A stretch of 64,000 nt of DNA, taken from positions 64,001 to 128,000 of the IMG/VR virus record IMGVR_UViG_3300042374_001687; one strand, written 5' to 3'. The notes below the pieces were generated by a model that made no database searches, was not told where the DNA came from, and worked only from the letters and a program-made list of their open reading frames with translations. Shown in pieces: positions 828-43,982 of this stretch (the first letter of the stretch is position 1; every line of letters starts with the position of its first letter). Source of the DNA: a virus. The translations under genes and the position numbers were made by a program.

Positions 828-3800
828 ATGCCAACAGGATTCCCCCCTCAACCAACATTTCCATTAGCAATAGATTCCGACAGGACTCTATTCCTCGTCT
901 ACAACACGAGCGAGGCCAAGACCATAAAAGAAAACCCGGCTTGGAGCGAAGAGATAGAAATTGAGCCCGTAAGGCCAGATCAACAAGAGATATGGGCAGA
1001 CAACGGATTTGCCAACATATCGGGGGAGATGTTTTATTATGACGCGGTAGAAAAGAACGAGGTTGTGGGCAGTGGGGCAGTTATTGGGCAAGTGAAGGTA
1101 AATGAAGATGGATCCTTGGTAAGCGTTTCCGTATTGAATGGCGGGTCGGGCTACAAGGTTCCAGCCATAAAGGTACTGGGAGCAGGGACGGGAGCAAAGG
1201 TTAAGGCCAATGTTGTAGATGGGTCGATACGCAGCATAGAGGTGGTCAGGGGAGGTTCCGGCTACAACGAAAATGGATTGACTTTTCAATTTGAGGGAAA
1301 AGTATTCAAACTAAAGAGATGCGCCAGAGGCCTAGGGGGCAAGCCCACAAAGTTCAATCCCGCCGGATCGTGGGTAAGAGGCTTTGTTATAGCAGAACAT
1401 CACAATCAGCTGGTTGATGCCACATTAGCTGTTGAGCAGTATATATTTGAAATAGAAGAAAGCATAACCAAACTTGAGAACGAACCTGTTTGCTTGGATG
1501 ATGCCTATTGCGTAGATGTCGTGCTTGAAACGAACGTGTTGACTGGGGGCTCTCCGAATTGCGAGGGAACCACCATAGAGTATTTCATAACAATAAACGG
1601 AACATTTGACACATTCAATCTTGACTTTGGAGATGGCCAATCCACAACATCCACGCAATCTGGGACTCACACCTATGCGGCAGGGGCGGTTATAGATCCT
1701 ATAGTAACTGTCATAAGTCCAGACTGTACAGTCGTACAGACCCCGATAACAAGATCTACAAGCAAAGTTCCAGAAGTTCCAACAGGACCTGATCCTTTCA
1801 TTGTTCCAATACCGCAAGTTCCTGCATTTCCGAACATAACAATACCCCAAATAAACCAAACCCCCCAGATAGAACTGCCTCAGATCATATTTCCGTGTCT
1901 GGACATAAATCCGATAAGTTTTCCAAGTATTGTCATACCAGCCCCCTCAATAACCATAAATGTTCCTAGTTTCGGACCCTTTCCAGGATTCGTTCCGACG
2001 GTAACATTCGGCCCTGCTCCCCAAGTGGGTCCGGCGAGTTTCACATTCGGCCCTGCTCCCCAAGTGGGTCCGGCGAGTTTCTTTTTCGGCCCGGCGCCAA
2101 GTGTTGGCCCAGCGAGCTTCACCTTCGGCCCAGCACCAAGTGTTGGCCCAGCGAGTTTTGAATTTGGCCCAGCACCAAGTGTTGGCCCAGCGAGTTTCTC
2201 CTTTGGCCCAGCACCAAGCGTAAGCCCAGCGAGTTTCACTTTTGGCCCGGCGCCTAAAATAAGCCCAGCGAGTTTCACCTTTGGCCCGGCGCCTAAAATA
2301 AGCCCAGCGAGTTTTGGCTTTGGACCGGCACCTAAAATGAGCCCAGCGAGTTTTAGTTTCGGGCCCGCACCAAAGATCGCCCCAGCCAGTTTCAATTTTG
2401 GCCCGGCCCCTAAAATAAGTCCGGCCAGTTTCAATTTTGGACCGGCACCTAAAATAAGCCCAGCGAGTTTTGGCTTTGGACCGGCACCTAAAATAAGCCC
2501 AGCGAGTTTTGGCTTTGGACCGGCACCTAAAATAAGCCCAGCGAGTTTTGATTGGGGCAAGGCTCCAAAGGTGGAAGGCGCAAGCTTCAACTGGGGAAAG
2601 GCTCCAAAGGTGGATGCATCCTTCAACTGGGGCAAGGCTCCAAAGGTGGAAGGCGCAAGCTTCTACTGGGGCAAGGCTCCAAAGGTGGAAGGCGCATCCT
2701 TCAACTGGGGAAAGGCTCCAAAGGTGGAAGGCGCAAGCTTCAACTGGGGAAAGGCTCCAAAGGTGGATGCATCCTTCAACTGGGGCAAGGCTCCAAAGGT
2801 GGAAGGCGCAAGCTTCTACTGGGGCAAGGCTCCAAAGGTGGAAGGCGCATCCTTCAACTGGGGAAAGGCTCCAAAGGTGGAAGGCGCATCCTTCAACTGG
2901 GGCAAGGCTCCAAAGGTGGATGCATCCTTCAACTGGGGCACGCCTCCAAAGATTGACGGAGCTAGTTTTAATTGGGGCAAGCCACCAAAAGTCGAAGGAG
3001 GGAGTTTCAACTGGGGGACGCCTCCAAAGATTGACGGAGCTAGTTTTAATTGGGGCAAGCCACCAAAAGTCGAAGGAGGGAGTTTCAACTGGGGGACGCC
3101 TCCAAAGATTGACGGAGCTAGTTTTAATTGGGGGACGCCTCCAAAGATTGACGGAGCTAGTTTTAATTGGGGGACGCCTCCAAAGGTGGAAGGAACTTCT
3201 TTTAATTGGGGAACGCCTCCAAAAATTGAGGGAGCCTCATTTAATTGGGGGACGCCTCCAAAAATTGAGGGATCCTCATTTAATTGGGGAACGCCGCCAA
3301 AGGTTGAGGGAGCCTCATTTAATTGGGGAACGCCGCCAAAGGTTGAGGGAGCCTCATTCAACTGGGGTACGCCGCCCAAGCTTGAGGCGTCATTTAGTTG
3401 GGGGACTCCTCCAAAGGTAGAGGGCGCGTCATTTAGTTGGGGGACTCCTCCAAAGGTAGAGGGCGCGTCATTTAGTTGGGGGACTCCTCCAAAGGTAGAG
3501 GGCGCGTCATTTAGTTGGGGGACTCCTCCAAAGGTAGAGGGCGCGTCATTTAGTTGGGGGACTCCGCCAAAGATTGAAGGGGCTTCTTTTACCTGGGGAA
3601 CTCCGCCTAAGATTGAAGGGGCTTCTTTTACCTGGGGAACTCCGCCTAAGATTGAAGGGGCTTCTTTTACCTGGGGCTCTGCTCCTACGGCTACAGGTAG
3701 TTTCACATGGGGCAACCCTCCCGAAGTCAGCGGAAGCTTCACTTGGGGAAACCCCCCAGAAGTTACAGTTAGTTGGGGAACTGCTCCGACTGTGGAGTGC

Positions 3801-4427
3801 GTGGTTACAGTGCAATGCCCATCGGCCTCCCCCGCCCCCTTCAGGAGAGGCATGACTCTTGATGAAAACTTTGTTGATGACTTTAACTCCCAAGACTATG
3901 ACATAGAAATAAATGATTTGGGAATACCTTCCGAAATCAGAGTCGTAGTTCCAAAGTTCCCCGAAATTCAAGTCAAACACGACATACCGGAATTCATAAA
4001 TATCAAATCGGACTTGCCCGAAAGAATAGAACTTTATCAGTCTGACGCTTTGCCAAAAGAAATAAAGATTGTCAATGAAGCAGTCATACCTCAACAAATT
4101 AAGGTTGACGCAACAGAGATACCTAATTCAATAAAGCTGGACACAAGCTCTTTGCCTGGAGTGATAAGCTTGGTTCCCATAGATTTGCCCTCTGTGATAA
4201 GGATTGACGGATCTGAGATACCGGAAACGATAAAAGTTGTGGGCATACCGGAGTCTATTGAGGTGAGGATGCCCAGCGAGATAGTTGCACGACTTGAAAT
4301 CCCAGAAAACCTAGAAATACCACTCGTTTACAGGGGAGGTCCTGTCCCTGTACAGTTTGACTCATCAAATTTGCTGGGAGGGGACGAACAAGCTTGTTTC
4401 GCCCTTGTTCCTTGCAATAAAAAATGA
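828..4427 (+). CDS. Large fibre-like virion protein with PKD/Ig-like domain and ~45 Pro-rich 12-13-aa repeats
   Basis: Contains 'V.V.NGGSGY...P' motifs common in T4-like baseplate/tail proteins, a PKD signature 'LDFGDGQS...THTYA', tandem FxFGPAPK / FNWGKAPK / FSWGTPPK repeats, and C-terminal IPxxI repeats. TAGATA motif at 807. Confidence 0.65.
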   Translation: MPTGFPPQPTFPLAIDSDRTLFLVYNTSEAKTIKENPAWSEEIEIEPVRPDQQEIWADNGFANISGEMFYYDAVEKNEVVGSGAVIGQVKVNEDGSLVSVSVLNGGSGYKVPAIKVLGAGTGAKVKANVVDGSIRSIEVVRGGSGYNENGLTFQFEGKVFKLKRCARGLGGKPTKFNPAGSWVRGFVIAEHHNQLVDATLAVEQYIFEIEESITKLENEPVCLDDAYCVDVVLETNVLTGGSPNCEGTTIEYFITINGTFDTFNLDFGDGQSTTSTQSGTHTYAAGAVIDPIVTVISPDCTVVQTPITRSTSKVPEVPTGPDPFIVPIPQVPAFPNITIPQINQTPQIELPQIIFPCLDINPISFPSIVIPAPSITINVPSFGPFPGFVPTVTFGPAPQVGPASFTFGPAPQVGPASFFFGPAPSVGPASFTFGPAPSVGPASFEFGPAPSVGPASFSFGPAPSVSPASFTFGPAPKISPASFTFGPAPKISPASFGFGPAPKMSPASFSFGPAPKIAPASFNFGPAPKISPASFNFGPAPKISPASFGFGPAPKISPASFGFGPAPKISPASFDWGKAPKVEGASFNWGKAPKVDASFNWGKAPKVEGASFYWGKAPKVEGASFNWGKAPKVEGASFNWGKAPKVDASFNWGKAPKVEGASFYWGKAPKVEGASFNWGKAPKVEGASFNWGKAPKVDASFNWGTPPKIDGASFNWGKPPKVEGGSFNWGTPPKIDGASFNWGKPPKVEGGSFNWGTPPKIDGASFNWGTPPKIDGASFNWGTPPKVEGTSFNWGTPPKIEGASFNWGTPPKIEGSSFNWGTPPKVEGASFNWGTPPKVEGASFNWGTPPKLEASFSWGTPPKVEGASFSWGTPPKVEGASFSWGTPPKVEGASFSWGTPPKVEGASFSWGTPPKIEGASFTWGTPPKIEGASFTWGTPPKIEGASFTWGSAPTATGSFTWGNPPEVSGSFTWGNPPEVTVSWGTAPTVECVVTVQCPSASPAPFRRGMTLDENFVDDFNSQDYDIEINDLGIPSEIRVVVPKFPEIQVKHDIPEFINIKSDLPERIELYQSDALPKEIKIVNEAVIPQQIKVDATEIPNSIKLDTSSLPGVISLVPIDLPSVIRIDGSEIPETIKVVGIPESIEVRMPSEIVARLEIPENLEIPLVYRGGPVPVQFDSSNLLGGDEQACFALVPCNKK
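2005..3790 (+). repeat. In-frame 39-bp (some 36-bp) tandem repeat array with a 153-bp higher-order unit
   Basis: Units are visible directly. The 36-bp 'VDAS' variant recurs at 2611, 2764 and 2917 (153-bp period). Confidence 0.95.
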
Positions 4428-5284: not shown

Positions 5285-5564
5285 TTTGTCCAATTTGAAT
5301 CCCGACAATTTCAAAAAATGGATGAGATCCCAGAACGACTTTGATGCCAACATGGAGCAAAATCTAGAAGGGGCTTCAGTGGAGACAAGATTTTCGGCAA
5401 AAAGAATAATAGCCCATATGATTCCAGAAGAAGGCAGGGTCTCCAAGATGGCAAAAGAGTTTGTTGAGTCTGGCGGCGCTTTGAGAAAAGTGGACGGAGA
5501 CGAGTATTTGATAGAAGTTGCGTCCGGATCTTTTTATATACACAAGAAATATGTTATCGTTTGA
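5277..5564 (+). CDS. Hypothetical protein (contains NFKKWM motif near N-terminus)
   Basis: ORF overlapping the upstream stop, with coherent composition. Confidence 0.6.
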   Translation: MNDLSNLNPDNFKKWMRSQNDFDANMEQNLEGASVETRFSAKRIIAHMIPEEGRVSKMAKEFVESGGALRKVDGDEYLIEVASGSFYIHKKYVIV

Positions 5565-5922
5565 TGTCGGAATTTCTTCTGAGCATAGTTGAACTTTTTG
5601 TGACAAGAGCCTCTTTGTTTATATATGTAGAGGGCACATAACCAGAGAACTGGCTTATTGGCAAGTGAGAGTATCCTCTTTTTCTCAAGGAAGACTTGAG
5701 ATCGTCAAAGGAGTCGGCGGACTCTATGAATAATTCATATTGCATTCTGTTGTCGTAAGCCTCTTTGGCAATTGCAGAGCCAATCTGGGGGTTGAGGTTT
5801 AATTTATCTACATCGTTGATCCTTGTGGCATAAACCTTTTGGTCAAATGCGAAGGCGCTTATGACTTTTATGCCCTTTTTGTCCAGTCGCGCAAGATACA
5901 CATACAGATTACTTTTTGCCAT
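5554..5922 (-). CDS. Hypothetical protein
   Basis: 122-aa ORF with GGAG RBS. Confidence 0.6.
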   Translation of the reverse strand: MAKSNLYVYLARLDKKGIKVISAFAFDQKVYATRINDVDKLNLNPQIGSAIAKEAYDNRMQYELFIESADSFDDLKSSLRKRGYSHLPISQFSGYVPSTYINKEALVTKSSTMLRRNSDIKR

Positions 5923-6043
5923 TAATTAACTCCGCAAGCAATTCTTCCAAAATTATCTGGGTGTAGATATCCATATCCCCAAATTGCTCCATGAAGTCCT
6001 TCATTGCCTCTCCGACTTCATTTTTTTCAATTTCTTGATTCAT
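5909..6043 (-). CDS. Small acidic hypothetical protein (44 aa, not in ORF track)
   Basis: MNQEIEKNEVGEAMKDFMEQFGDMDIYTQIILEELLAELINGKK*, with AGGTGA RBS, overlapping the next gene start. Confidence 0.5.
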   Translation of the reverse strand: MNQEIEKNEVGEAMKDFMEQFGDMDIYTQIILEELLAELINGKK

Positions 6044-6135
6044 AAATCACCTAGAAGGGTCAGACTAAGCGACCCAATTATATTGGCCCGGGAATGCACT
6101 ATATACTATTGCCTTTCACTTAAAAGAGGGAACCC

Positions 6136-6687
6136 ATGAGCGTTTTTAGAGTAAAACTCACAAATACTAGGCAAGGCCTTTTGGATGTTTACGACAATCA
6201 ACGAACAGCCTACATAACAGGCCCCAACAGGATAAACAGAAAGCTCAAGGACGGGGAAACCTTTGTGGATTGCAATTATTGGAAGAGGTTTGCCTATCCA
6301 AATGTGCCCTTGGAGGAGGCCTTCATAGAAGTGGTTGAGGATGACGGCACCATCTACAGTGACAAAATATCCGAAAACACCTATCCCAAGGTTTACGATC
6401 TGATTGCAGTTACAGGATCAACCTATGCGGACAACAAGGCCGACATAGTCAAAGACTCGGGAAGTTGGGCCCTTTTTGCCCAGATAACAAACAAAAGCGA
6501 TTCCGACGGGGTCAAGGTAAGGCTCAATGGATTGAACACGGCAATAATAGATCTTCCTGCCGGTAGCACTCAAGTTTTCAGCGTCGGAGATTTGACAATA
6601 GGCTCAATAGAGGTAGATAACGGCTCTGGATCGGCCGACGTGCAGGTTCAAATACTAGTATCGGTGAGTTCCATCGGAACTTCATGA
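6136..6687 (+). CDS. Probable virion protein carrying the shared 'G.LD...QRT.Y...RK..DGET' domain at its N-terminus
   Basis: Motif shared with 46966, 47677 and 60129. TATATA motif and GAGGG RBS upstream. Confidence 0.55.
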   Translation: MSVFRVKLTNTRQGLLDVYDNQRTAYITGPNRINRKLKDGETFVDCNYWKRFAYPNVPLEEAFIEVVEDDGTIYSDKISENTYPKVYDLIAVTGSTYADNKADIVKDSGSWALFAQITNKSDSDGVKVRLNGLNTAIIDLPAGSTQVFSVGDLTIGSIEVDNGSGSADVQVQILVSVSSIGTS

Positions 6688-6757
6688 TGCCCCTTAAAAA
6701 CACGAAAGTGTGACTATTATAGACTGGTGCGAATGCACCCAAACAACGGAACGATTC

Positions 6758-6985
6758 ATGCCAAATTTGATCAAACAAGGAGAGGCCAGGGTAATAACAA
6801 AAAACGGCGAGGTTTTTGTGAACATAGCCCTCGAGCTCACGATAAAATTGGACGGGTCGAATCTTCAAGTTCTGTCGGGATCGGGTTCCGGAACCGCCTC
6901 GCACGCGGCGAAGCAAGAAGAGGAAAAGGTCGACTGGGCTATTCAAGACTTTGCCCCTAGTAATAAGATAAAATTCGGCAAATAA
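6758..6985 (+). CDS. Small hypothetical protein, first gene of the actin-like operon
   Basis: ATG at 6758 is more plausible than the track start. Ends 10 nt before the actin-like gene. Confidence 0.6.
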   Translation: MPNLIKQGEARVITKNGEVFVNIALELTIKLDGSNLQVLSGSGSGTASHAAKQEEEKVDWAIQDFAPSNKIKFGK

Positions 6986-6995
6986 GGAGAAAATT

Positions 6996-8015
6996 ATGTC
7001 AGCACGCGGATTCGATTGCGGTACCTATAATCTGGTTTGTTGTAAGCGTACTGCCGAGAATGAATTTTCGTACAAGAGAGAGGTGAACGCCTTTTTGCAG
7101 ATGCCCTTGGAAAACCGCTTCGTCTTCAATATGATGAAGAACGCCGGCGTGCCCTTGATAGAGCAGCCCGAAGCGAACTTGGCGTATGCCCTCGGCGAGT
7201 CGGCGGTCAACATGGCATACACCATGAACCAAATTGAATTGAAGCGCCCGATGAAGGATGGCTGCCTCAATCCGAAGGAAAGATACGCACAGCAGATCAT
7301 GAATGTGATGTGCCACAGTCTCATAGGAGAGGTGGAGGAGGATGGAACTCCCTTGTACTACTCGGTTCCCGCAAATGCCATAAACCAAGAGACGGACGCG
7401 GATTATCACGGAAAAGTCTTGGAGGCGATGTTCCGTTCCTACAAGAGTGAGAAGGGATACACTGTGGATCCGCATCCGATTAACGAGGCATTGGCTCTCG
7501 TCTATGCGGAACTTTCCAACAAGGCTTGGACCGGCGTGGGAATATCATTCGGTGCAGGAATGGTGAATCTTTGCTACGCGATGTACGGAGCCCCCATCTT
7601 CCAGTTTTCTATAGTAAACAGCGGCGACTGGATCGACAAGATGGCCTCCAAGGCCCTTGGGGAAGATACGACGACATATGTGAACAAAGAAAAAATGCAC
7701 GCGGACTTGACCGTGGAGAATCCCGAAAGCCTTGTGCAGCGAGCCATAAAGTCGCAGTACGAAATCATGATCCAGCATACCGTTTCGGGAATAAAGAAGG
7801 GCGTGGAAGAGGCCGGAAACAAGGCCCGTTCGGAACAGCCCATAGACATAGTGGTGGCGGGCGGAACCAGCATGCCCAAGGGTTTCGATGTCTTGTTCCG
7901 TAAGATTCTAGAGCAATCCAAGATTTCGATGAAGATAGGCGATGTAATCAGGCCCAGCGACCCGCTATACTCGGTGGCTCGTGGTTGCTTGATTGCCGCA
8001 GAAAACGCAAAGTAA
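6996..8015 (+). CDS. Actin-like ATPase (MreB/MamK/ParM superfamily)
   Basis: Phosphate-1 'GFDCGT', connect-1 'INEALA', phosphate-2 'GISFGAGMVN', adenosine 'VVAGGTS' and connect-2 'YSVARGC'. 339 aa with a strong AGGAG RBS. Confidence 0.85.
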   Translation: MSARGFDCGTYNLVCCKRTAENEFSYKREVNAFLQMPLENRFVFNMMKNAGVPLIEQPEANLAYALGESAVNMAYTMNQIELKRPMKDGCLNPKERYAQQIMNVMCHSLIGEVEEDGTPLYYSVPANAINQETDADYHGKVLEAMFRSYKSEKGYTVDPHPINEALALVYAELSNKAWTGVGISFGAGMVNLCYAMYGAPIFQFSIVNSGDWIDKMASKALGEDTTTYVNKEKMHADLTVENPESLVQRAIKSQYEIMIQHTVSGIKKGVEEAGNKARSEQPIDIVVAGGTSMPKGFDVLFRKILEQSKISMKIGDVIRPSDPLYSVARGCLIAAENAK

Positions 8016-8034
8016 AAGAAAGAAAGAGAGAAAA

Positions 8035-8253
8035 ATGAAAAAGACAGTAAGTGACCTGGGTGCGGGAGCCTACCTGCTCATGCACGGGCACAAGGTGGTT
8101 GGAAGGCAAGGAAGGGATTTTATATTCGAGGTAGGAGAGCAAGAGGAGACGGAATTCGAGCAAAGAAAGTTAGAATACCTCTCGAGCGAGTTCCATAGAT
8201 TTGACTCTTATATAATGTCTTTGAAGAAGATTGGCGAATACAACCCGAAATGA
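8035..8253 (+). CDS. Small DUF5659-like phage protein
   Basis: 'SDLGAGAYLLMHG...F.F' pattern, 72 aa, directly after the actin gene. Confidence 0.5.
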   Translation: MKKTVSDLGAGAYLLMHGHKVVGRQGRDFIFEVGEQEETEFEQRKLEYLSSEFHRFDSYIMSLKKIGEYNPK

Positions 8254-8678
8254 AACCAGAGGGACTAGAATATTTTGTCGGGAAAATCTGCACTATTTTT
8301 ACTGTTCCGACGAACAGAGACTTCAAGTCAGAGAACCCCCAGACCTTTCCACAGCCCGTTTTTCACTATTTTGTGGGTAGAGTGCTTGAGGTAAATCAAA
8401 ACGGGATCTGCATAGAGCAGTGGAACAACAGGAAGAAGCTCAGAACTTTTTTCTTTATGGATCATTTGGTCTCTATTTCCGAGGAGGAGATACTTGACCC
8501 CTCAAATCCCGAGGATATAGAAGTAATAGAAGAATACAAAAAGGCGAACCAGCCGATCCACAAGGATCTTGGTTCGGGCGAAAAGGTCAAGGAAAAGATA
8601 GAACCAGCCGAAAGTCAATATGTTGATATAGATTCCTTGTCTAATCTTGCCAAGGAAAATTCAAAAATCAACCAGTAA
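8250..8678 (+). CDS. Hypothetical protein (possible Sm/SH3-like beta barrel)
   Basis: ATGA-coupled to the previous gene, with a beta-rich N-half and a charged tail. Confidence 0.55.
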   Translation: MKPEGLEYFVGKICTIFTVPTNRDFKSENPQTFPQPVFHYFVGRVLEVNQNGICIEQWNNRKKLRTFFFMDHLVSISEEEILDPSNPEDIEVIEEYKKANQPIHKDLGSGEKVKEKIEPAESQYVDIDSLSNLAKENSKINQ

Positions 8679-9723
8679 TGCTGTTTATGGCTATCCTTGT
8701 ACTTTCCCAATCTCCTCCGGCCAGAGAATTATTGTATTGCTTCTCTTGTGCGTTTATGTATCCGCGAAGGATCTTGTCGCCCTTTGCCATCAATAGGCCG
8801 TTCCAGTCCTTGAATTCCTTGCAAGGCCTCACATAATTAACTTTTTTGAATCCTCTGGCGAACAGAAAATTTGCCATTTTGGGAAGGGCTTGACTCCCGG
8901 CCTCGTCCGCATCAAGGCAAAGAACTGGGGTGTATTCTTCTATCATTCTCATTTGATTTTCTGTGATTGACTTTCCGCCTAGGGCGGCGGAATAGAAGCC
9001 GCACTGCGAAAGGGACATTGCGTCAAACTCTCCCTCCGTGATGTATATTTTTTCACTTTTGATTGGCCATTTTTGTACATACAGAACATCTCCCTTGCCA
9101 ATGCCTAGTTCCTTGGGAGGCCCCAAGTACCTCAAATTTGTTCCAGGATCTCCGATATATCTTCCGTTGTAGTAAATCAATGATCCTTTTTTGTCGTAAT
9201 ATGGTATTACTATCCTGTTTTTGTATCTTCCGGAAGTGCATATAAGAAGTCCGTCCGAGTTTATTCGGCGACCCTTGAGATAATCAGAAGCCTCTTTTCT
9301 CAAGTAGTTTGAAGAAGGAAGTTCGTCAAAAAGATAGCATCCAGAAGGTATCTCAAGACGATTCTCGACGGCAAGGGATGGCCGTTCTTGTTGATCATCC
9401 TTTGTCAAAAAAAGCTCGTGAACTTTTCTCTCCAGATCTTCGAGCGTTCCAGTAGACACGGCGTCCAATGTCTCAACGGCTTGCTCATATGAGCACTTGT
9501 CAACAAGCATCACCAATTTGACAAGGCTGCCCTTCTGGTCCGATTTCCAACAATGATACACGCCGTTCTGTATCTTGTTTTTTCCTCCGGAAGGATTGCA
9601 CCAGAGGTGGCGCTTGCGGTCTTCACAAAATATTGAGTTGACAAGCACCTCATCGCCCTTCACGGCGACATCGTCAAATCTGGATTCGGCCCAGGACAAA
9701 AATCTATCAAAATCAATTGACAT
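8668..9723 (-). CDS. DNA primase (DnaG/T4 gp61-like, Zn finger + TOPRIM)
   Basis: 'YHCWK..KGS' Zn-finger remnant, 'RIVIPYY...YYNGR', TOPRIM 'ITEGEFDAMS', 'LDADEAG' and 'KDWN'. Confidence 0.9.
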   Translation of the reverse strand: MSIDFDRFLSWAESRFDDVAVKGDEVLVNSIFCEDRKRHLWCNPSGGKNKIQNGVYHCWKSDQKGSLVKLVMLVDKCSYEQAVETLDAVSTGTLEDLERKVHELFLTKDDQQERPSLAVENRLEIPSGCYLFDELPSSNYLRKEASDYLKGRRINSDGLLICTSGRYKNRIVIPYYDKKGSLIYYNGRYIGDPGTNLRYLGPPKELGIGKGDVLYVQKWPIKSEKIYITEGEFDAMSLSQCGFYSAALGGKSITENQMRMIEEYTPVLCLDADEAGSQALPKMANFLFARGFKKVNYVRPCKEFKDWNGLLMAKGDKILRGYINAQEKQYNNSLAGGDWESTRIAINSITG

Positions 9724-9792
9724 TAGTCGTTCCTTTTGGAATAATCTTAGACAAAGGGATTGAAAAAATCAATCCCCATCTATGATAAACTT

Positions 9793-10599
9793 ATGAAGAT
9801 TGAGCACATATCTGTTTCCAGGGGTAAATCTTACGACCAGTGTCCCTACTACTACAAATTAAAATACCACGAGAAGATTCCGAATCCGGGCGAAGAGCAG
9901 TTTTATTTTGTTTATGGCAAAATCATACACAAGATCGCTGAGCAACATGTTCAAGAACGAGGAGCAAGAAGCCTCAAAGAGGTTTCTAATGATGTTCTCA
10001 AAGGCGCGATAGAAATAGAAGATGGCAAAAAGGCCCCGCCGTTGCCGGCCGACTATAAGAAAAGAATGCCGCAACACATAAAGGCGATAGACAACCTCAA
10101 TAAGAAGATAGGGTGCGACGGCATAACCGAATATAAATTCAAGTACGACTTGGATCCTCCTCATGGAAAGTTCGTAACGGGCTTCATAGATCGAATAATA
10201 TTAAGGAACTCCAAGGCATGGATATTGGACTACAAGACAACGAAGCCCGGGCCGTTCAGAGAAAACAAGCACACCATAAAGACCGATCCCCAGCTGAGGC
10301 TATACTCAAGGGTTGTTCAAAAAGAATTCGGGATTGATCCTGCGAACATAAAGGCAGCCTTGTATTACCTTGAAGGAGAACATCTGCTGCCCGCTTCATA
10401 TAGCGAAGATTCGCTAGACATGATAGAGAGGGAACTTCTAGAAGTTTATAATTCAATAAGTTCTCACGACCCGGACAAAGCGTTCGGCAAGACCGGTAAC
10501 CACTGCAACAGATGCGAATACAGGGACATGTGTCCATTCTTTAGGAATGGAAGTTCTAAAAAAAGAATAACCTGGGACGGCGACCTCGGAAGTCTCTGA
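9793..10599 (+). CDS. PD-(D/E)XK nuclease, Cas4/RecB-AddB-like with Fe-S cysteines
   Basis: 'S.S...YDQCP', 'GKIIHKIAE', 'GFIDRI', 'ILDYKT', 'QLRLY' and C-terminal 'HCNRCEYRDMC'. Confidence 0.85.
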   Translation: MKIEHISVSRGKSYDQCPYYYKLKYHEKIPNPGEEQFYFVYGKIIHKIAEQHVQERGARSLKEVSNDVLKGAIEIEDGKKAPPLPADYKKRMPQHIKAIDNLNKKIGCDGITEYKFKYDLDPPHGKFVTGFIDRIILRNSKAWILDYKTTKPGPFRENKHTIKTDPQLRLYSRVVQKEFGIDPANIKAALYYLEGEHLLPASYSEDSLDMIERELLEVYNSISSHDPDKAFGKTGNHCNRCEYRDMCPFFRNGSSKKRITWDGDLGSL

Positions 10600-10614: not shown

Positions 10615-11475
10615 TCAGAACAATAAGAAATTCGGCACTGGGATGAGATTATTGTCGGAAATCTTCTTGAGTCTGTCCCAGTCATAAATGGGTATCAAGT
10701 CTAAGTCCATCTTCTTTTTCAATATCCATTCATGCTTGTTTTTAATAAACACAGCCTTTATTGAATTTAAGGGGGTGAAGAATCCTATGCCCCTGCCGGT
10801 TAATTCAGAGGTTCCCCAGCATATGCCTACAAGCTCTCCATCGTTTGTCAACAGACCTCCTCCGGACCTTCCCGGCCTGGGGCTGTTTTTTTCAGTGACT
10901 ATATCAGGATCTTTATACTCCAAAACTTTGACCTCGTATCTGGCGACCTCCCCTCCTCCGTCACAGCCCAATGAATTCAAAACCATTCCTTTCTTGATTT
11001 CAAAGTGAGGGGCTATAGGGAAAAATTGGGGGCTCCAGTCAGGCTGGAACCTCAAGAGGCTTGAGTCGAACCCTCTGTCGTTGCTCCAAAAAAGAACCTC
11101 TGCCTCATACGATTGAGTTTGCGGCAGTTTAAATCCATTTTTGTACCATACGACAATGCTGGCCTTCTCGGGCCTTTTGGGATCGTAGGACTTGTTCCCG
11201 TCCCACATATGGCCGCACGATATGACATACGCCCAGTTTGACTCTTGGTCATAGTGGCATATGGTTCCCGAACCAGAAGAAGATTTTACAGATATTTTAA
11301 CAGAAGCCGAGAGAAAATTTATATATCGCTTGTCCCTTTCTTCTTTGGGCAGCGAAAAGTCCACAAGCATAGCCGAATCTCTCAAGATCGGATAAAACGG
11401 TTCTTGAGAATATGACTGGTTGATACTTGTGAAGTAAAATGCTATAATACAGAAGACAATTGAAATCCTTTTCAT
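10615..11475 (-). CDS. Secreted trypsin-like serine protease
   Basis: N-terminal signal peptide. Catalytic triad in 'SCGH', 'FDSSLL' and 'PGRSGGGL'. GGAGG RBS before ATG 11475. Confidence 0.85.
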   Translation of the reverse strand: MKRISIVFCIIAFYFTSINQSYSQEPFYPILRDSAMLVDFSLPKEERDKRYINFLSASVKISVKSSSGSGTICHYDQESNWAYVISCGHMWDGNKSYDPKRPEKASIVVWYKNGFKLPQTQSYEAEVLFWSNDRGFDSSLLRFQPDWSPQFFPIAPHFEIKKGMVLNSLGCDGGGEVARYEVKVLEYKDPDIVTEKNSPRPGRSGGGLLTNDGELVGICWGTSELTGRGIGFFTPLNSIKAVFIKNKHEWILKKKMDLDLIPIYDWDRLKKISDNNLIPVPNFLLF

Positions 11476-11493
11476 TGTTAGCCTCCATGCTAC

Positions 11494-11505
11494 AAGTATA
11501 TACTT
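11494..11505. promoter_or_regulatory. Palindromic putative late promoter AAGTATATACTT between divergent genes
   Basis: Perfect 12-bp palindrome 19 nt from start 11475(-) and 10 nt from start 11515(+). Matches the window-wide TA.ATA motif. Confidence 0.5.
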
Positions 11506-11514
11506 CACAAGGAA

Positions 11515-39727: not shown

Positions 39728-41974
39728 TCACATTAAACTTCTTATAATTTGAGAACAATAAGATTCATAAGACAACAATTGTTGTGAAATAAACTCAACC
39801 CTGTCGCCCACAGTTTTACCTTGCCCTTCAAATATTGGGTTGTAAAAAATAGGATTATTAAATTGTAAGTTTAAAATTTCTTTGTGGAAAACTCTAAGAT
39901 TTTCAAATATATTGATCCAATTAAACTTAAAATCGTCTTTTATGAATTTATCTATCGAGCTTACAAGTTCCTTTGAATTAAAATTAATACTTCTAAAATC
40001 TCTTCTTATATCAAAGTGATAGGAAGGCTCAAGATTTAAGTGATAATCACCACCACCATCACCAGAATTTAAATTATAAAAACAACCACTATTTTGATAT
40101 CTGTATATTTTTGTCATTGGATTTATCGGACCATAAATTATAAAACTAGGTGTGTTTAGTAGTTGTGCAATATGAGAAGGCCCAGAGTCTATGCCTATAA
40201 AAAGAAATGCATTATTTATAAAAACAAACATATCTTTTATAGATCCAACATCCCTTTGATCGAATAAAATATTTTTGTTTTTATATTCTTCTATTTTTTT
40301 TTCATACTCATTACAATAAAATTTATTTTCTTTTTTGAGTCTTTGTCCAATTAAAACAATTTTATAATCCCCAGAAAGATAATCTATCAGATCTATAAAC
40401 TTATCTTGCTTTGGCATCCTTCCTTCAAAACCTACTCTTTGAGAATCCAGATGTAGCACCACATATTTTTCTTCGATAGGATTAAAGTTAGAATCAAATT
40501 TTTCTATAAATTGCTTGATCAAGTAAGGGTTTGTATCTGTTTCAACAACATTTAGTTTTGCACATATCAAATCAATAGTGTGCATTGGGTATGAATAATT
40601 TAAACTAGTCAAATTGTAAATTGTATCATAATTTGCTTGATCAAAATCATTTACGATTTTTATTTTTGGTAGAAGTTCGTATAGAAAATTAAGTTTATTT
40701 GTGGACAAAGATATGTCAACATTATTTAATTTATGTTGCATTAAGCAACTAGAGACAGGGTATAGTGCATCTACCATATCTCCAAAACCATCTACATTCA
40801 AATTTATCAATATTCTGTTTTTAAATTCTTTTGATTTTAATGATAAATATTTTCGCCATCTACAAAGAAATTTAGATCTATTTAATTCAACAATAGAGTT
40901 TTTAATTGATTCTGGTATTTTATTTGAGCTTTGTGCTCTTTTATGATAAATTTTTATATTTATGTTTTCTTGCTCAAATCCAATTTGTTTTGCCCGTAGA
41001 CAAAAATCTACATCCTCGAAATAAAAATATCTATATAGGTTATCAAAACCGGACAATTGTTTAAAAACACAAGATCTTATGAATAAAACAGAGCCTTCGC
41101 TATAGTCTGGTGTTTGTTTATATTGAGTTTTAATATCGTGTCCACATCCAAATTCATTTACAAATTGAGGCAGATTAGATGAACCTACTATAGCGACATT
41201 TGGTCTTGATTCGAAAATATAAACCGCCTCATTCAGCCAATTAAAATCTTCTATTTCAATGTCATCGTTTAAACACAAAAACAAATCGCTTTCTTGTTGA
41301 TCAAAGTTTTTGTTGTGCCCTTTGCCATAACCTATATTATAGTTGTTGTAAAAACAAACTGATAGATATTTAAGTTCTGATTTAATTTGAAGGCAAGCGT
41401 CTTTTATAATTTCTTGATTACAATCAAAAGAATTATTTCTAATAAATAGTGTTATACTCTCACACCCCATTAGCTCCAATTGCTTGAAAATTCCATAACA
41501 TGTTTTTTTAATGAAATCTACTACAGATTGTTCTGGCTGGTATAGCAAAACGGATACTAACACTTTGGTTTTTGGTGACATTTTATACAGCTTGTTTTGA
41601 ACGTAGTGCTCTGTTGGTAAATCGAGCATGGATTTTTTGTATATCCTTTTTTCTTTTGAACCGTGTAGTAGAAAATGTTGTGCTGCTTTTTCTTTTGAGT
41701 CTAAGTGTTTTAACTCCTTGTATCTTTCAACATATGAGATCCAATCAAAATCTTTTGGTATCAAATTCTCTAGCTGGCTTTTATTTTTAAAATTATTGGG
41801 TGCATAAGTTTTATAATGATAAAATAACCTGTGTTTGTCGTCATAGTTATTCTCCGTGCAATAAGGCTGATAAAAATTTTTGGTTTCGGGATTTTGAGTT
41901 TGATAAAACGCTTCATCGAAATCTTCATCAATAGAATTGACTTCATAAAATTCTTTTATGTTTAAAATTTTCAT
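39728..41974 (-). CDS. Bifunctional glycosyltransferase (GT2 + GT9/heptosyltransferase-like)
   Basis: GT2 motifs 'NIGYGKGHN', 'LNDD' and 'YFEDVDFCLRA'. GT9 motifs 'GFGDMV' and 'FIGIDSGPSHIA'. Two 'DFD..Y...' modules at the N-terminus. Confidence 0.85.
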   Translation of the reverse strand: MKILNIKEFYEVNSIDEDFDEAFYQTQNPETKNFYQPYCTENNYDDKHRLFYHYKTYAPNNFKNKSQLENLIPKDFDWISYVERYKELKHLDSKEKAAQHFLLHGSKEKRIYKKSMLDLPTEHYVQNKLYKMSPKTKVLVSVLLYQPEQSVVDFIKKTCYGIFKQLELMGCESITLFIRNNSFDCNQEIIKDACLQIKSELKYLSVCFYNNYNIGYGKGHNKNFDQQESDLFLCLNDDIEIEDFNWLNEAVYIFESRPNVAIVGSSNLPQFVNEFGCGHDIKTQYKQTPDYSEGSVLFIRSCVFKQLSGFDNLYRYFYFEDVDFCLRAKQIGFEQENINIKIYHKRAQSSNKIPESIKNSIVELNRSKFLCRWRKYLSLKSKEFKNRILINLNVDGFGDMVDALYPVSSCLMQHKLNNVDISLSTNKLNFLYELLPKIKIVNDFDQANYDTIYNLTSLNYSYPMHTIDLICAKLNVVETDTNPYLIKQFIEKFDSNFNPIEEKYVVLHLDSQRVGFEGRMPKQDKFIDLIDYLSGDYKIVLIGQRLKKENKFYCNEYEKKIEEYKNKNILFDQRDVGSIKDMFVFINNAFLFIGIDSGPSHIAQLLNTPSFIIYGPINPMTKIYRYQNSGCFYNLNSGDGGGDYHLNLEPSYHFDIRRDFRSINFNSKELVSSIDKFIKDDFKFNWINIFENLRVFHKEILNLQFNNPIFYNPIFEGQGKTVGDRVEFISQQLLSYESYCSQIIRSLM

Positions 41975-42675
41975 AAGTAAAAATTCTCTATAAGATCTAA
42001 TTCTAATTTAAGTTTTTTTTCCAGATAGTTTTTTAAATTTTCGTTAATTTTTAAATCTTCTTTTTTGTTTTTGATATTGTTATATACATTTTTTAATTTT
42101 AGCGAAAAGGGATTAATTTGGTTAAATCTATCAATACAAGTCTGCATTTTTTCTTGGATAAAAATAAAGTTATATTTTTTAATTTCTTCTTTTGCTATTT
42201 CAAATTTTTCTTCTAAGCTTTTATCCTCATAGCCACAAAGCATATTCATTGTTTCGTGCCCAAATTTTGATATAAAACTATTTAATTCGTCTATTTTTAA
42301 ATCTTTTGGATGCTTTTTTTCAAAAAACAAACAGTGACTTATAAATCTGCTTATAGGATTTCTTATGGTAAAAATTCTATAGGTCTCCTCTTGTTTTAAA
42401 TTAAATTGATCTTCTATAAAGTTCGCGTAACTATGATCTATAAAAGCCTTTGTTCCTTTGTGTATTGCTTTTATGCAACACATATCTCTATGAAGACTTA
42501 TATTCCCATGTGTTAGCATAGAAATATAAGTCGGATTGTTTGAAAAATATTCGTTTTCTTTAAAAGCATCATGAAATGAATGCCTTAGGCTGCTCCCTGC
42601 ACATTTTGCCACATGATTTAATACTAAGTATCTAAACACTAGTAAATCCTTGTATATCCAAAACCTTGTTTCCAT
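41971..42675 (-). CDS. Sulfotransferase family 2-like protein
   Basis: 'HVAKCAGSSL' and 'FTIRNPISRFISH'. Confidence 0.75.
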   Translation of the reverse strand: METRFWIYKDLLVFRYLVLNHVAKCAGSSLRHSFHDAFKENEYFSNNPTYISMLTHGNISLHRDMCCIKAIHKGTKAFIDHSYANFIEDQFNLKQEETYRIFTIRNPISRFISHCLFFEKKHPKDLKIDELNSFISKFGHETMNMLCGYEDKSLEEKFEIAKEEIKKYNFIFIQEKMQTCIDRFNQINPFSLKLKNVYNNIKNKKEDLKINENLKNYLEKKLKLELDLIENFYL

Positions 42676-43982
42676 TATTCTCCATAAGATTTCTCCTCCA
42701 CTATTTGCGACTTGTAATGTAAATTTACATCTTTCTTTATTTTTGCTCTTATATCATTAAATTGATATACCTGTCTTGCGGTTTGTGTAAACTCATCATC
42801 AAATCGACCAGTAGATTCTATGTGTCTTATCTTATCTTCTACTTCCCAAAGTTTTTTGTTTATGTTTATCAATTTATCGAAAAATAATAAATAATTTTTA
42901 TCATAATTGATTTTTTTTGACTCTAATACAAGTTCTAAAGATTTAAGTTCTTTGCAAATGTTTTTGCTTTTTTTTTCATCGTTTATTTTTATTTTTTTAA
43001 TTGTTAATATCGTTACTTTATCAATCAAATCGCCAACAGATGTCGGGACAAATAATTTAGATTCTTCGTTTTTTTCTCCAAGAACATAAATTCTTTTGTT
43101 AAATTCCCTTATCATATTTCCAAACAATCTCTCAAAAGCGTGGGCAATTGTACCATCTGATTTGTGTCTTTTTTCAAAAATATCAACATTTAAATTTGTT
43201 AAAAAATAATTGATAATGTCATATCTAACAACAAACATGGTGCCATAAATAAAGTCTATAGTATTATCTTCAATCTTTAGAAGCTTTCTAATTTTATTAA
43301 AATTTTTTTCATTGATAAAATCTTGCTCATGAGTTAACGACAACCTTGTGTTTGGAGAGCCGATCATTCCAATCGATTCTTCAACCTCAAGAAGCAATAC
43401 TATAGAGCTTAAGTTTTTACAAAGATTTTTATAAACACTATTTCTAAAACAGTGTGTCCAAAATTCATTGGTTTGCGAAGACTTTTTAGTATGAAGTTTT
43501 AGGATATATTTATATTTTTTCCCAGTAGAGTTAATGTGTTGAATAGTTTTTACAAACGGAGCAATATCAGCTCCTGAATTTTTTAATAAAATTATATTCG
43601 ACTCTGGAATTTGTTCTTTAATTGTTTTTTCGTACTCTTTATTGTTTATTGTAATGTAGATATCTCTTGGAACATCTAAGTTTTTAATTAACGGTTTTAT
43701 TTCTTGCTCCCACACTTCAAAATAATGCACATGAACTATTATGCATATTTTATCCTTTATTGGACAGAAATCATAATCATAATAATTTAATAACTCTTTT
43801 CTATTTTTAAACCGCCCTATTCCTTCGTTTTTATAAAGACTATAATGATAAAACAACCTTCTTCTATCATCTATGTTGTTTTCTTGACAATAAGGCTGAT
43901 AAAAACAAATAGTCTCTGGGTATAGGGAGGAGTAGAAGTTTTCATCAAAATCAATGTCTATTGATATTTCTTTGATATCCAT
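42675..43982 (-). CDS. RgpF (rhamnan synthesis F)-like glycosyltransferase fused to a DUF6165-like domain
   Basis: 'IIVHVHY', 'NSGADIAPF', 'LKLHTKKS', 'GTMFVVR' and 'AHAFERLFG'. C-terminal 'SVGDLIDKVTIL.IK...LWEVED.IR...ND.RA.IK..N...IVEEKSY'. Confidence 0.8.
   Translation of the reverse strand: MDIKEISIDIDFDENFYSSLYPETICFYQPYCQENNIDDRRRLFYHYSLYKNEGIGRFKNRKELLNYYDYDFCPIKDKICIIVHVHYFEVWEQEIKPLIKNLDVPRDIYITINNKEYEKTIKEQIPESNIILLKNSGADIAPFVKTIQHINSTGKKYKYILKLHTKKSSQTNEFWTHCFRNSVYKNLCKNLSSIVLLLEVEESIGMIGSPNTRLSLTHEQDFINEKNFNKIRKLLKIEDNTIDFIYGTMFVVRYDIINYFLTNLNVDIFEKRHKSDGTIAHAFERLFGNMIREFNKRIYVLGEKNEESKLFVPTSVGDLIDKVTILTIKKIKINDEKKSKNICKELKSLELVLESKKINYDKNYLLFFDKLININKKLWEVEDKIRHIESTGRFDDEFTQTARQVYQFNDIRAKIKKDVNLHYKSQIVEEKSYGE

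What the first reader, a model, noticed from the sequence alone, without database searches (positions are those of the whole stretch)
6758..8678. Phage-encoded actin-like ATPase operon (candidate phage cytoskeleton)
Seen: a 339-aa protein with all five actin-fold motifs, in a tight four-gene unit with a 75-aa upstream ORF, a 72-aa DUF5659-like ORF and a 142-aa ORF, next to the primase. Known: large phages often use the tubulin PhuZ, plasmid ParM/AlfA systems pair an actin with a small DNA-binding adaptor, and a prophage actin (AlpC/AlpA of Corynebacterium CGP3) exists. Inference: a filament plus adaptor system that positions phage DNA or capsids in a large, compartmentalised host. Phosphate-2 is atypical (SFGAG instead of DxGGG). 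I saw no parC-like centromere repeat nearby.
Basis: partly seen in the sequence, partly recalled or inferred. Interest (0 to 1): 0.72.

Follow-up and report, generated by a model that had tools for sequence, protein, structure and literature searches.

The report
Volactin-type actin module of huge phage
A fragment of an uncultivated giant phage encodes its own actin-like protein of the "volactin" family, flanked by two small conserved phage-only partners, so these tubulin-less phages probably build their own actin filaments; no filament has been seen, and I found no paper that describes this.

Summary
ORF 6996-8015 is a 339-aa actin-fold ATPase that scores 218.8 bits against Pfam Volactin (cut-off 35). 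It falls below every MreB, MamK and BeeR cut-off. The model is confident (pLDDT 94.8) and its nearest solved folds are filament formers: BeeR, MreB, crenactin and MamK.

The "atypical" SFGAG phosphate-2 loop is the hallmark of the whole volactin family. Some relatives carry an intein in that loop.

The gene belongs to a large clade of huge phages (complete relatives 390-572 kb, no Pfam Tubulin match). It is the most conserved gene of its neighbourhood, at a median 65% identity against 44% for the primase.

- **75-aa gene:** it lies directly upstream in 67 of 82 loci. It has a conserved tail, WxIPDF...KIxFGK.
- **72-aa gene:** this DUF5659-like gene follows in 78 of 82 loci.
- **142-aa ORF:** it belongs with the primase and is only inverted into the operon in this sub-lineage.

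I found no DNA-binding fold and no centromere repeats, and the host is unknown. Polymerisation and adaptor docking are inferred, not shown.

This scan has already reported the same module on other DNA (171 notes, at least 139 genomes).

The parts
6714..6722 (+). Promoter-like motif CTATTATAG, 36 nt upstream of the 75-aa gene
   Evidence: CTATWWTA occurs 18 times in the window against 5.3 expected, and 0 of 100 shuffles reach 18. Related loci carry TATATAA-like boxes just upstream of the same gene. Function and timing are not shown.
6758..6985 (+). 75-aa candidate adaptor (g75): N-terminal beta-rich module, variable linker and conserved C-terminal tail DKVxWAIPDF....KIxFGK
   Evidence: It lies directly upstream of the actin in 67 of 82 loci, and within 138 nt in 61 of those 67. 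One search found 418 homologues, and the 120 listed are 69-84 aa with no Pfam domain. It has no TM segment, no Pfam or PDB match, and a poorly ordered Atlas model.
6996..8015 (+). 339-aa volactin-family actin-fold ATPase
   Evidence: PF25216 1.7e-64, 218.8 bits against a cut-off of 35. AF2 pLDDT 94.8, pTM 0.92. VIA Z: BeeR 28.5, MreB 26.9, crenactin 25.4. Foldseek top hit is MamK. The profile against PDB sequences gives MamK 2.6e-16. It forms a strongly supported phage clade in the tree.
8035..8253 (+). 72-aa DUF5659-like accessory protein (g72)
   Evidence: It lies downstream on the same strand in 78 of 82 loci, with a median identity of 58%. It is tandemly duplicated in many relatives. Five of 20 members hit PF18903, best E 2.4e-5. 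Its Atlas neighbours are viral DUF5659 clusters. AF2 pLDDT is 95.5, and no solved fold match exceeds Z 4.6.
8250..8678 (+). 142-aa ORF, translationally coupled here but not a conserved member of the module
   Evidence: It lies on the + strand after g72 only in L002, L003, L004, L018 and L081. In the other 53 loci where it is found, it lies on the - strand directly downstream of the primase. Its only family hit is a weak phrog_12337 match.
8668..9723 (-). DnaG-type primase (context, replication module)
   Evidence: Toprim_2 2.1e-15 and phrog_47 DNA primase 8.9e-39.
6136..6687 (+). 183-aa conserved upstream neighbour of unknown function (context)
   Evidence: It is present upstream in 77 of 82 loci, with a median identity of 47%. 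It has no family hit. In many relatives a GT9-like gene of about 320 aa separates it from g75.

Best explanation
The 339-aa gene encodes a viral member of the volactin family of actins. It most likely binds and hydrolyses ATP and polymerises into dynamic filaments inside the infected cell. This would give these tubulin-less huge phages a cytoskeleton of their own. The 75-aa protein encoded 10 nt upstream is most likely its adaptor. In this reading a conserved C-terminal tail (WxIPDF....KIxFGK), held on a variable flexible linker, docks on the actin, and the N-terminal beta-rich module binds the cargo or oligomerises. The 72-aa DUF5659-like protein is a second conserved accessory of unknown role. 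The 142-aa ORF is a primase-linked gene that was inverted into the operon in this sub-lineage. Shown: family membership, fold, conserved nucleotide-binding residues, very strong conservation and conserved gene order. Inferred: polymerisation, tail docking and the existence of a cargo. The cargo itself (replicating DNA, proheads or membrane) is unknown.
For: - **Family membership:** Pfam Volactin 218.8 bits against a cut-off of 35. The founding member forms dynamic filaments in Haloferax volcanii (PMC10869688).
- **Fold:** the AF2 model has pLDDT 94.8. Its best solved matches are filament formers: BeeR Z 28.5, MreB 26.9, crenactin 25.4, and MamK as Foldseek top hit.
- **Nucleotide site:** D7, G9, G186, G289, G290 and G330 are invariant. 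T10, E164, S184, G188 and T291 are nearly invariant. This holds across 57 relatives down to about 30% identity.
- **Inteins:** relatives carry a LAGLIDADG intein between S184 and residue 185 of the phosphate-2 loop.
- **Conservation:** the actin is the most conserved gene in the region. Median identities over 73 loci are 65% for the actin, 44% for the primase and 46% for the nuclease.
- **Gene order:** g75 lies upstream in 67 of 82 loci and g72 downstream in 78 of 82. Insertions accumulate around the g75-actin pair but rarely inside it.
- **A second lineage:** about 200-kb phages, whose actin is about a third identical, keep a different gene upstream. It encodes 102-144 aa and ends 2-4 nt before the actin in most loci. 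It has an N-terminal TM helix and an almost invariant C-terminal tail, SVSKLAQLKGK. The same architecture therefore recurs with an unrelated partner.
- **No tubulin:** no Pfam Tubulin match in the window's own record, in four relatives at least 98% complete (390-572 kb) or in LR756511.
Against: - No filament, ATPase activity or protein-protein contact has been measured or modelled here, because no multimer prediction was available.
- The phosphate-2 Asp of canonical actins is Ser in this family.
- The Hsp70 nucleotide-binding domain (BiP) also scores Z 23.8, so the fold alone does not prove polymerisation.
- g75 and g72 were found only within one phage clade (actin at least 60% identical). No homologue lies near more distant family members. 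Their linkage could therefore be inherited synteny.
- The two upstream partner families show no homology (hhalign probability 0.1%).
- g72's fold matches nothing informative.
- About half of the loci have 0.2-1.2 kb inserted between the actin and g72.
Confidence: 0.6

Rival explanations
1. This is a ParMRC/AlpAC-type DNA-positioning machine. One of the small proteins binds a phage DNA site and couples it to actin filaments, which move or anchor replicating phage genomes.
For: The module lies in the replication block, beside the primase and a PD-(D/E)XK nuclease. The gene order, small gene then actin, matches alpA-alpC, where AlpA binds DNA and AlpC (PMC4446434). Some unnamed family members (source organism not given) carry an N-terminal ParB-type HTH fused to the volactin domain (P0166, P0189).
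Against: No iterated repeats or centromere-like array were found at 5500-9800. g75 has no recognisable DNA-binding domain. g72's confident model matches no HTH, RHH or other DNA-binding fold (best Z 4.6). In the second phage lineage the partner is a membrane protein, not a DNA binder.
Confidence: 0.22
2. This is a filament system for late functions or host remodelling. It could traffic or organise proheads and virion assembly. Alternatively it could reshape the infected cell, as volactin does in Haloferax.
For: Volactin itself acts in cell-shape transitions, and its filaments bridge the cytoplasm with their tips at the membrane (PMC10869688). TATA-rich boxes reminiscent of T4 late promoters lie just upstream of g75 in many relatives. 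The partner is membrane-anchored in the roughly 200-kb lineage. Earlier scan notes place the module among head and neck genes in other lineages; I did not test this.
Against: In this lineage the neighbours are replication genes. g75 has no membrane segment. The exact T4 late box TATAAATA is not upstream of the operon. Promoter class and timing are untested.
Confidence: 0.25
3. The protein does not polymerise. It is an ASKHA-fold ATPase acting as an enzyme, chaperone-like factor or regulator, and the flanking genes are only syntenic neighbours.
For: Hsp70 nucleotide-binding domains score nearly as well as actins (BiP Z 23.8). The phosphate-2 Asp is replaced by Ser. The neighbour linkage is seen only within one clade.
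Against: The protein is only 339 aa and has no substrate-binding domain. It sits far above the Volactin cut-off. The best sequence-profile hits in the PDB are MamK, BeeR and MreB. A sugar kinase ranks lower (MurK Z 17.8). Conservation exceeds that of the primase, as expected for a polymer with many interfaces.
Confidence: 0.12

Closest known systems
Volactin (VolA, HVO_2015) of Haloferax volcanii; Pfam PF25216 (Schiller et al. 2024, PMC10869688)
   Same: Both belong to the same Pfam family (218.8 bits against a cut-off of 35). They share the phosphate-2 signature G-I/L-S-F-G-A-G-M-V/T-N, which a DNA pattern scan found in 86 haloarchaeal loci. Both are single-domain proteins of about 330 aa.
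   Different: The phage proteins form their own strongly supported clade, separate from the haloarchaeal, Thermoplasmata and Archaeoglobi clade and from the Planctomycetota clade. They are encoded by huge phages and have phage-only partners (g75, g72) that are absent next to the cellular genes. A role in cell shape is not implied.
AlpC/AlpA of Corynebacterium glutamicum prophage CGP3 (Donovan et al. 2015, PMC4446434)
   Same: Both are phage-encoded actin-like proteins with a small co-transcribed partner gene directly upstream. In CGP3 the partner is an adaptor that binds the actin.
   Different: AlpA binds a DNA site in its own promoter, whereas no DNA-binding fold or repeats were found here. 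I did not compare the sequences, because no AlpC sequence was at hand. The present protein is placed in the volactin family by Pfam.
ParMRC / AlfAB / Alp7AR plasmid segregation systems
   Same: All pair an actin-fold NTPase with a small partner. A docking tail on a flexible linker is the logic of ParR-ParM; this rests on my own knowledge.
   Different: ParM, Alp7A and AlfA are more distant structural matches (Z 22.7-16.9). The small gene lies upstream here rather than downstream. There are no centromere repeats, and no RHH was detected.
MreB, MamK and BeeR bacterial actins
   Same: These are the nearest solved folds and the nearest profile hits.
   Different: Scores are far below the family cut-offs: Pfam MreB_Mbl 25 against 27; NCBIfam MamK 34.6 against 400, MreB 20.8 against 293 and BeeR 15.7 against 530. 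MreB joins the tree on a branch of 3.86 substitutions per site. The N-terminus starts directly at the phosphate-1 strand, so there is no N-terminal amphipathic helix.
PhuZ/TubZ tubulin cytoskeleton of nucleus-forming jumbo phages
   Same: Both would be phage-encoded cytomotive filament systems in very large phages.
   Different: The protein superfamily differs (actin, not tubulin). No Pfam Tubulin match exists in this record or in complete relatives. I did not search for the phage-nucleus shell protein.

Membership tests
Volactin family (Pfam PF25216) | Score above the curated Pfam gathering threshold over the full model | tested here: met
   218.8 bits against a cut-off of 35, covering residues 3-335 on model positions 2-321 of 321. 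The genome search gave 218.3 bits.
Volactin family (Pfam PF25216) | Family-typical phosphate-2 loop I-S-F-G-A-G-M-V-N, with Ser in place of the actin/MreB Asp | tested here: met
   The window protein has GISFGAGMVN at 182-191. S184 is present in 35 of 36 diverse members, and G186 in all 36. The same motif is encoded in 86 haloarchaeal genome loci.
Volactin family (Pfam PF25216) | Dynamic filaments in vivo, as shown for HVO_2015 | not testable with these tools
   This needs microscopy or biochemistry. The published evidence covers only the Haloferax protein.
MreB/Mbl | Score above the Pfam MreB_Mbl and NCBIfam MreB cut-offs | tested here: not met
   PF06723 scores 25 bits against 27, on residues 60-106 only. 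NF010539 scores 20.8 against 293, and TIGR00904 scores 19.6 against 365.75.
MamK | Score above the NCBIfam MamK cut-off | tested here: not met
   NF040964 scores 34.6 bits against 400, although MamK is the best profile hit among PDB sequences (2.6e-16).
BeeR | Score above the NCBIfam BeeR equivalog cut-off | tested here: not met
   NF053558 scores 15.7 bits against 530. The structural Z of 28.5 reflects the shared actin fold.
ParMRC-type segregation locus | Centromere made of iterated repeats next to the operon | tested here: not met
   Only two-copy, chance-level repeats were found at 5500-9800.
ParMRC-type segregation locus | Small DNA-binding adaptor (RHH or HTH) | tested here: inconclusive
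   g75 has no Pfam or PDB match and is predicted to be poorly ordered. g72 has a confident model with no match above Z 4.6. An undetected DNA-binding mode is not excluded.
AlpAC-type phage actin system | Phage-encoded actin with a co-transcribed small partner upstream that binds the actin | tested here: inconclusive
   The architecture is met: g75 ends 10 nt before the actin, and this order is conserved in 67 of 82 loci. Binding was not tested. I made no sequence comparison with AlpC or AlpA.
DUF5659 (PF18903), for the 72-aa protein | Significant match to the Pfam model | tested here: inconclusive
   The window protein itself does not hit the model. Five of 20 orthologues do, best E 2.4e-5. 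Its Atlas neighbours are viral clusters in which 30-37% of members carry DUF5659.

The most novel reading that the evidence does not exclude
Half-megabase phages that lack tubulin run a cytoskeleton of their own, built from a viral branch of the volactin actins. The filaments are steered by a new class of small adaptors that plug a conserved C-terminal tail into the actin. These adaptors are soluble in this lineage and membrane-anchored in a second lineage. This would be a further type of phage cytoskeleton beside PhuZ/TubZ tubulins and AlpC. It would also link an archaeal cell-shape actin family to virus biology.
Probability: 0.45. Interest if true: 0.8.

Novelty: new variant of a known kind. 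Interest (0 to 1): 0.62.

Why it matters
Phage cytoskeletons are known mainly as PhuZ/TubZ tubulins, and the one studied phage actin is AlpC. Here a different actin family, so far characterised only in a haloarchaeon, turns up in huge phages. It is the best-conserved gene of a replication-module neighbourhood in hundreds of environmental contigs, and it has dedicated small partners.

If it polymerises, it offers a tractable system of one 339-aa protein and one 75-aa partner. That system could show how the largest phages organise replication or assembly without tubulin. It could also show how volactin-type filaments are nucleated, capped or tethered. The 2026 jumbo-phage review I read does not mention phage actins.

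Tried and rejected
- I could therefore not read the contexts of the 36-44% identical representatives (P0125, P0129, P0136) that way.
- **Scans that failed:** The scan with P0136 found nothing. Relatives cannot be drawn for a virus record.
- **Partners near distant relatives:** HMMs of g75 and g72 found no homologue near distant family members, viral or cellular (L083-L207).
- **Homology of the two partner families:** hhalign of the g75 family against the upstream partner family of the second lineage gave none (probability 0.1%). The shared architecture is analogy, not shown homology.
- **g72 as a winged-helix or DNA-binding adaptor:** neither Foldseek nor the wide VIA search gave a meaningful match.
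- **g75 N-terminus as an AbrB-like or other known domain:** no member of the alignment hit such a family, and there were no PDB sequence hits.
- **Fused forms of g75:** I found none.
- **Direct phmmer of the actin against PDB sequences:** nothing at E of 1 or less. Only the profile reached MamK and MreB.
- **T4 late box TATAAATA:** it occurs three times in the window, none upstream of the operon.
- **Viral structure library (BFVD):** no close model.
- **Literature:** I found no paper on volactin-type actins in phages.
- **Host assignment:** not attempted beyond noting that cellular family members occur in Halobacteria, Thermoplasmata, Archaeoglobi, Planctomycetota, Acidobacteriota and Patescibacteria.
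Full report
**What is there**

The window is bases 64001-128000 of a 143.6-kb IMG/VR virus record that CheckV rates 28% complete. Earlier notes of this scan call it a giant T4-related freshwater phage; I did not test that.

On the + strand lie four tightly spaced ORFs:
- 6758-6985, 75 aa (g75).
- 6996-8015, 339 aa (the actin).
- 8035-8253, 72 aa (g72).
- 8250-8678, 142 aa (g142).

They converge on a DnaG-type primase at 8668-9723 on the - strand. A PD-(D/E)XK nuclease follows at 9760-10599.

The stop of g75 overlaps an AAGGAG site 10 nt before the actin ATG. The actin and g72 are 19 nt apart. The g72 and g142 genes overlap by ATGA.

The motif CTATTATAG lies 36 nt upstream of g75. The pattern CTATWWTA is enriched in the window, 18 copies against 5.3 expected. 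Relatives carry TATATAA-like boxes at the same place. This is consistent with a promoter in front of g75, but the promoter class and timing are unknown.

**The actin**

The 339-aa protein matches Pfam Volactin (PF25216) end to end at 1.7e-64, 218.8 bits against a cut-off of 35. It misses the MreB_Mbl cut-off (25 against 27). It lies far below the NCBIfam cut-offs for MamK, MreB and BeeR.

Volactin (HVO_2015) is a Haloferax volcanii actin that forms dynamically unstable filaments in vivo and acts in the rod-to-disk transition (PMC10869688).

An AlphaFold2 model built on 57 relatives is confident (pLDDT 94.8, pTM 0.92). Foldseek ranks MamK first, then MreB, BeeR and actins. The exhaustive VIA search gives these Z scores:

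| Solved structure | Z |
|---|---|
| BeeR | 28.5 |
| MreB | 26.9 |
| Crenactin | 25.4 |
| Actin | 23.9 |
| BiP nucleotide-binding domain | 23.8 |
| FtsA | 23.0 |
| ParM structures | 22.7-16.9 |
| MamK | 21.6 |
| Alp7A | 19.0 |
| AlfA | 18.3 |
| Sugar kinase MurK | 17.8 |

A profile of the family reaches MamK (2.6e-16), BeeR, MreB and FtsA among PDB sequences. The single sequence reaches none.

The nucleotide-site residues are invariant or nearly so across relatives down to about 30% identity: D7, G9, T10, E164, S184, G186, G188, G289, G290, T291 and G330.

A degenerate DNA pattern for it recovered the following genome loci:
- 86 haloarchaeal loci.
- 11 Planctomycetota loci.
- Several Thermoplasmata and Archaeoglobi loci.
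- Single Acidobacteriota and Patescibacteria loci.

**How widespread and how constrained**

The word-indexed search found 1545 relatives. The best 120 are all at least 68% identical, and many lie on contigs of 200-630 kb. The exhaustive search of 50% cluster representatives found 903 representatives, 240 of them below 1e-30.

Eighty IMG/VR loci were fetched, with actins 60-97% identical to the window's, plus the uncultured huge phage LR756511 (595 kb). Four relatives are at least 98% complete, at 390-572 kb, and one of them has terminal repeats. None of these records, nor the window's own, has a match to Pfam Tubulin.

In a maximum-likelihood tree (quick search, SH-aLRT support only) the huge-phage proteins form a clade with 100% support. 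That clade is separate from the archaeal volactin clade (99%) and from a Planctomycetota clade (100%). MreB joins on a branch of 3.86 substitutions per site. This is therefore a viral branch of the family, not a recent capture from haloarchaea.

The actin is the most conserved gene of the region. Median identity to the window's proteins over 73 loci is as follows:

| Gene | Median identity |
|---|---|
| Actin | 65% |
| g72 | 58% |
| 183-aa upstream gene | 47% |
| Nuclease | 46% |
| Primase | 44% |
| g75 | 38% |

Several relatives of about 700 aa (for example P0121, 64% identical) carry an intein with a LAGLIDADG endonuclease. In P0121 it sits exactly between S184 and a Cys at position 185 of the phosphate-2 loop. 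From general knowledge, inteins favour conserved active-site motifs of important proteins.

**The neighbours**

- **g75** lies directly upstream of the actin in 67 of 82 loci, and within 138 nt in 61 of those 67. The exceptions have inserts, for example a GIY-YIG homing endonuclease in L022.
- **g72** follows on the same strand in 78 of 82 loci. About half of these have 0.2-1.2 kb of variable ORFs in between. The g72 domain is tandemly duplicated in many relatives.
- **g142** lies on the + strand only in the window's close relatives (L002, L003, L004, L018, L081). Elsewhere it lies on the - strand directly behind the primase. It belongs with the primase and was inverted in this sub-lineage.

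The g75 protein has three parts: a conserved N-terminal beta-rich segment (VVTKDGE..I.LDLNINLN), a variable Ser/Lys/Glu-rich linker, and a conserved C-terminal tail (DKVxWAIPDF....KIxFGK). One search found 418 homologues, and the 120 listed are 69-84 aa with no Pfam domain. I found no fused form, no PDB or Pfam hit and no membrane segment.

The g72 protein gives a confident beta-alpha-beta-beta-alpha-alpha model (pLDDT 95.5) with no informative structural match. Five of 20 orthologues hit DUF5659, and its Atlas neighbours are viral DUF5659 clusters.

**Are the partners functional?**

Within this clade, the conserved order could be plain inheritance. HMMs of g75 and g72 find nothing near more distant family members.

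I followed a lead from earlier scan notes about membrane adaptors and examined a second phage lineage. Its records reach about 200 kb. I kept 80 loci, and their actins are about a third identical to the window's.

There the gene ending 2-4 nt before the actin in most loci encodes a 102-144-aa protein. It has an N-terminal transmembrane helix, a variable linker and an almost invariant C-terminal tail, SVSKLAQLKGK. It shows no homology to g75 (hhalign probability 0.1%).

So two divergent lineages each keep a different small, translationally coupled upstream gene built as "anchor module, linker, conserved tail". That is the architecture of known actin adaptors. AlpA is co-transcribed upstream of AlpC and binds it. 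ParR docks on ParM through a C-terminal tail; this last point is my own knowledge. This raises my confidence that g75 is an adaptor, but no contact was modelled or measured.

**Mechanism and rivals**

- **Most likely (0.6):** the actin forms ATP-dependent filaments. g75 docks by its tail and links them to a cargo or to itself. g72 is an accessory.
- **DNA-positioning machine (0.22):** the position beside the primase and nuclease favours a ParMRC/AlpAC-type machine. So do ParB-HTH-volactin fusions in unnamed family members. The lack of repeats and of any DNA-binding fold speaks against it.
- **Late function or host remodelling (0.25):** a role in virion assembly or in reshaping the host remains possible.
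- **Non-polymerising ATPase (0.12):** this is less likely, given the family, the profile hits and the extreme conservation.

These readings overlap, so the figures are separate estimates, not shares of one total.

**Novelty**

I found no paper that describes volactin-type actins in phages. The 2026 jumbo-phage review discusses only tubulin filaments. This scan has already reported the same module on other DNA: 171 notes in at least 139 genomes.

I rate it a new variant of a known kind. Phage-encoded actin cytoskeletons are known; this one uses another actin family and other partners.

Noticed in passing
window 828-4427 (+): A 1199-aa ORF with no Pfam hit. Its middle consists of dozens of tandem units of about 13-14 aa (FGPAPxVGPASF, then NWGKAPKVEGASF and NWGTPPKIEGASF). 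It may be a fibre or surface protein.
   Followed up: no
window 39728-43982 (-), GC 27-28% against about 47% elsewhere: A low-GC island of three genes: a GT9-like glycosyltransferase, a sulfotransferase-like protein and an RgpF (rhamnan synthesis) protein with DUF6165. It looks like an acquired polysaccharide-modification cassette.
   Followed up: partly
P0121, P0130, P0132, P0134, P0141 (relatives of the actin, about 700 aa): P0121 and P0130 carry inteins with LAGLIDADG endonuclease domains in the phosphate-2 region of the actin (Pfam). In P0121 the intein sits exactly between Ser184 and a Cys at position 185. P0132, P0134 and P0141 show the same split match at about residue 185 but were not scanned.
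   Followed up: partly
P0166, P0189, P0220, P0131 (family representatives, origin unnamed): Volactin domains occur fused to an N-terminal ParB-type HTH (P0166, P0189). One is fused to a Wzz/GNVR/ParA-like tyrosine-kinase-type module (P0220). In P0131 two stretches match the volactin model. The ParB-HTH fusions hint at a DNA link for some family members.
   Followed up: no
L022:5255-5998, and comparable gaps in L035, L047, L054, L066: In L022 a GIY-YIG/NUMOD3 homing endonuclease is inserted between g75 and the actin. The whole region collects mobile and variable inserts in related phages.
   Followed up: partly
L012:4766-5761, L005:4797-5735 and many other relatives: A weak GT9-like glycosyltransferase gene of about 320 aa lies between the 183-aa gene and g75 in most relatives. 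It is absent from the window.
   Followed up: no
window 8250-8678 compared with L005-L082: The 142-aa gene next to the primase has been inverted in situ. In the window's sub-lineage it is coupled to g72 by an ATGA overlap. Elsewhere it lies downstream of the primase on the other strand.
   Followed up: partly
window-wide; for example 6714, 14982, 26923, 37906: The near-palindromic motif CTATWWTA is about three times over-represented, 18 copies against 5.3 expected. Several copies lie just upstream of gene starts, so it is a candidate phage promoter element.
   Followed up: partly
L015, L019, L025, L036, L053, L058 and others (downstream of the actin): The g72 (DUF5659-like) domain is tandemly duplicated into a protein of about 150 aa in roughly two thirds of the distinct relatives aligned.
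   Followed up: no
window 10615-11508 (-): A 297-aa protein with a hydrophobic N-terminal segment and a trypsin-like peptidase domain (Trypsin_2, 3.3e-9) lies next to the nuclease. It is conserved in 26 of the related loci.
   Followed up: no
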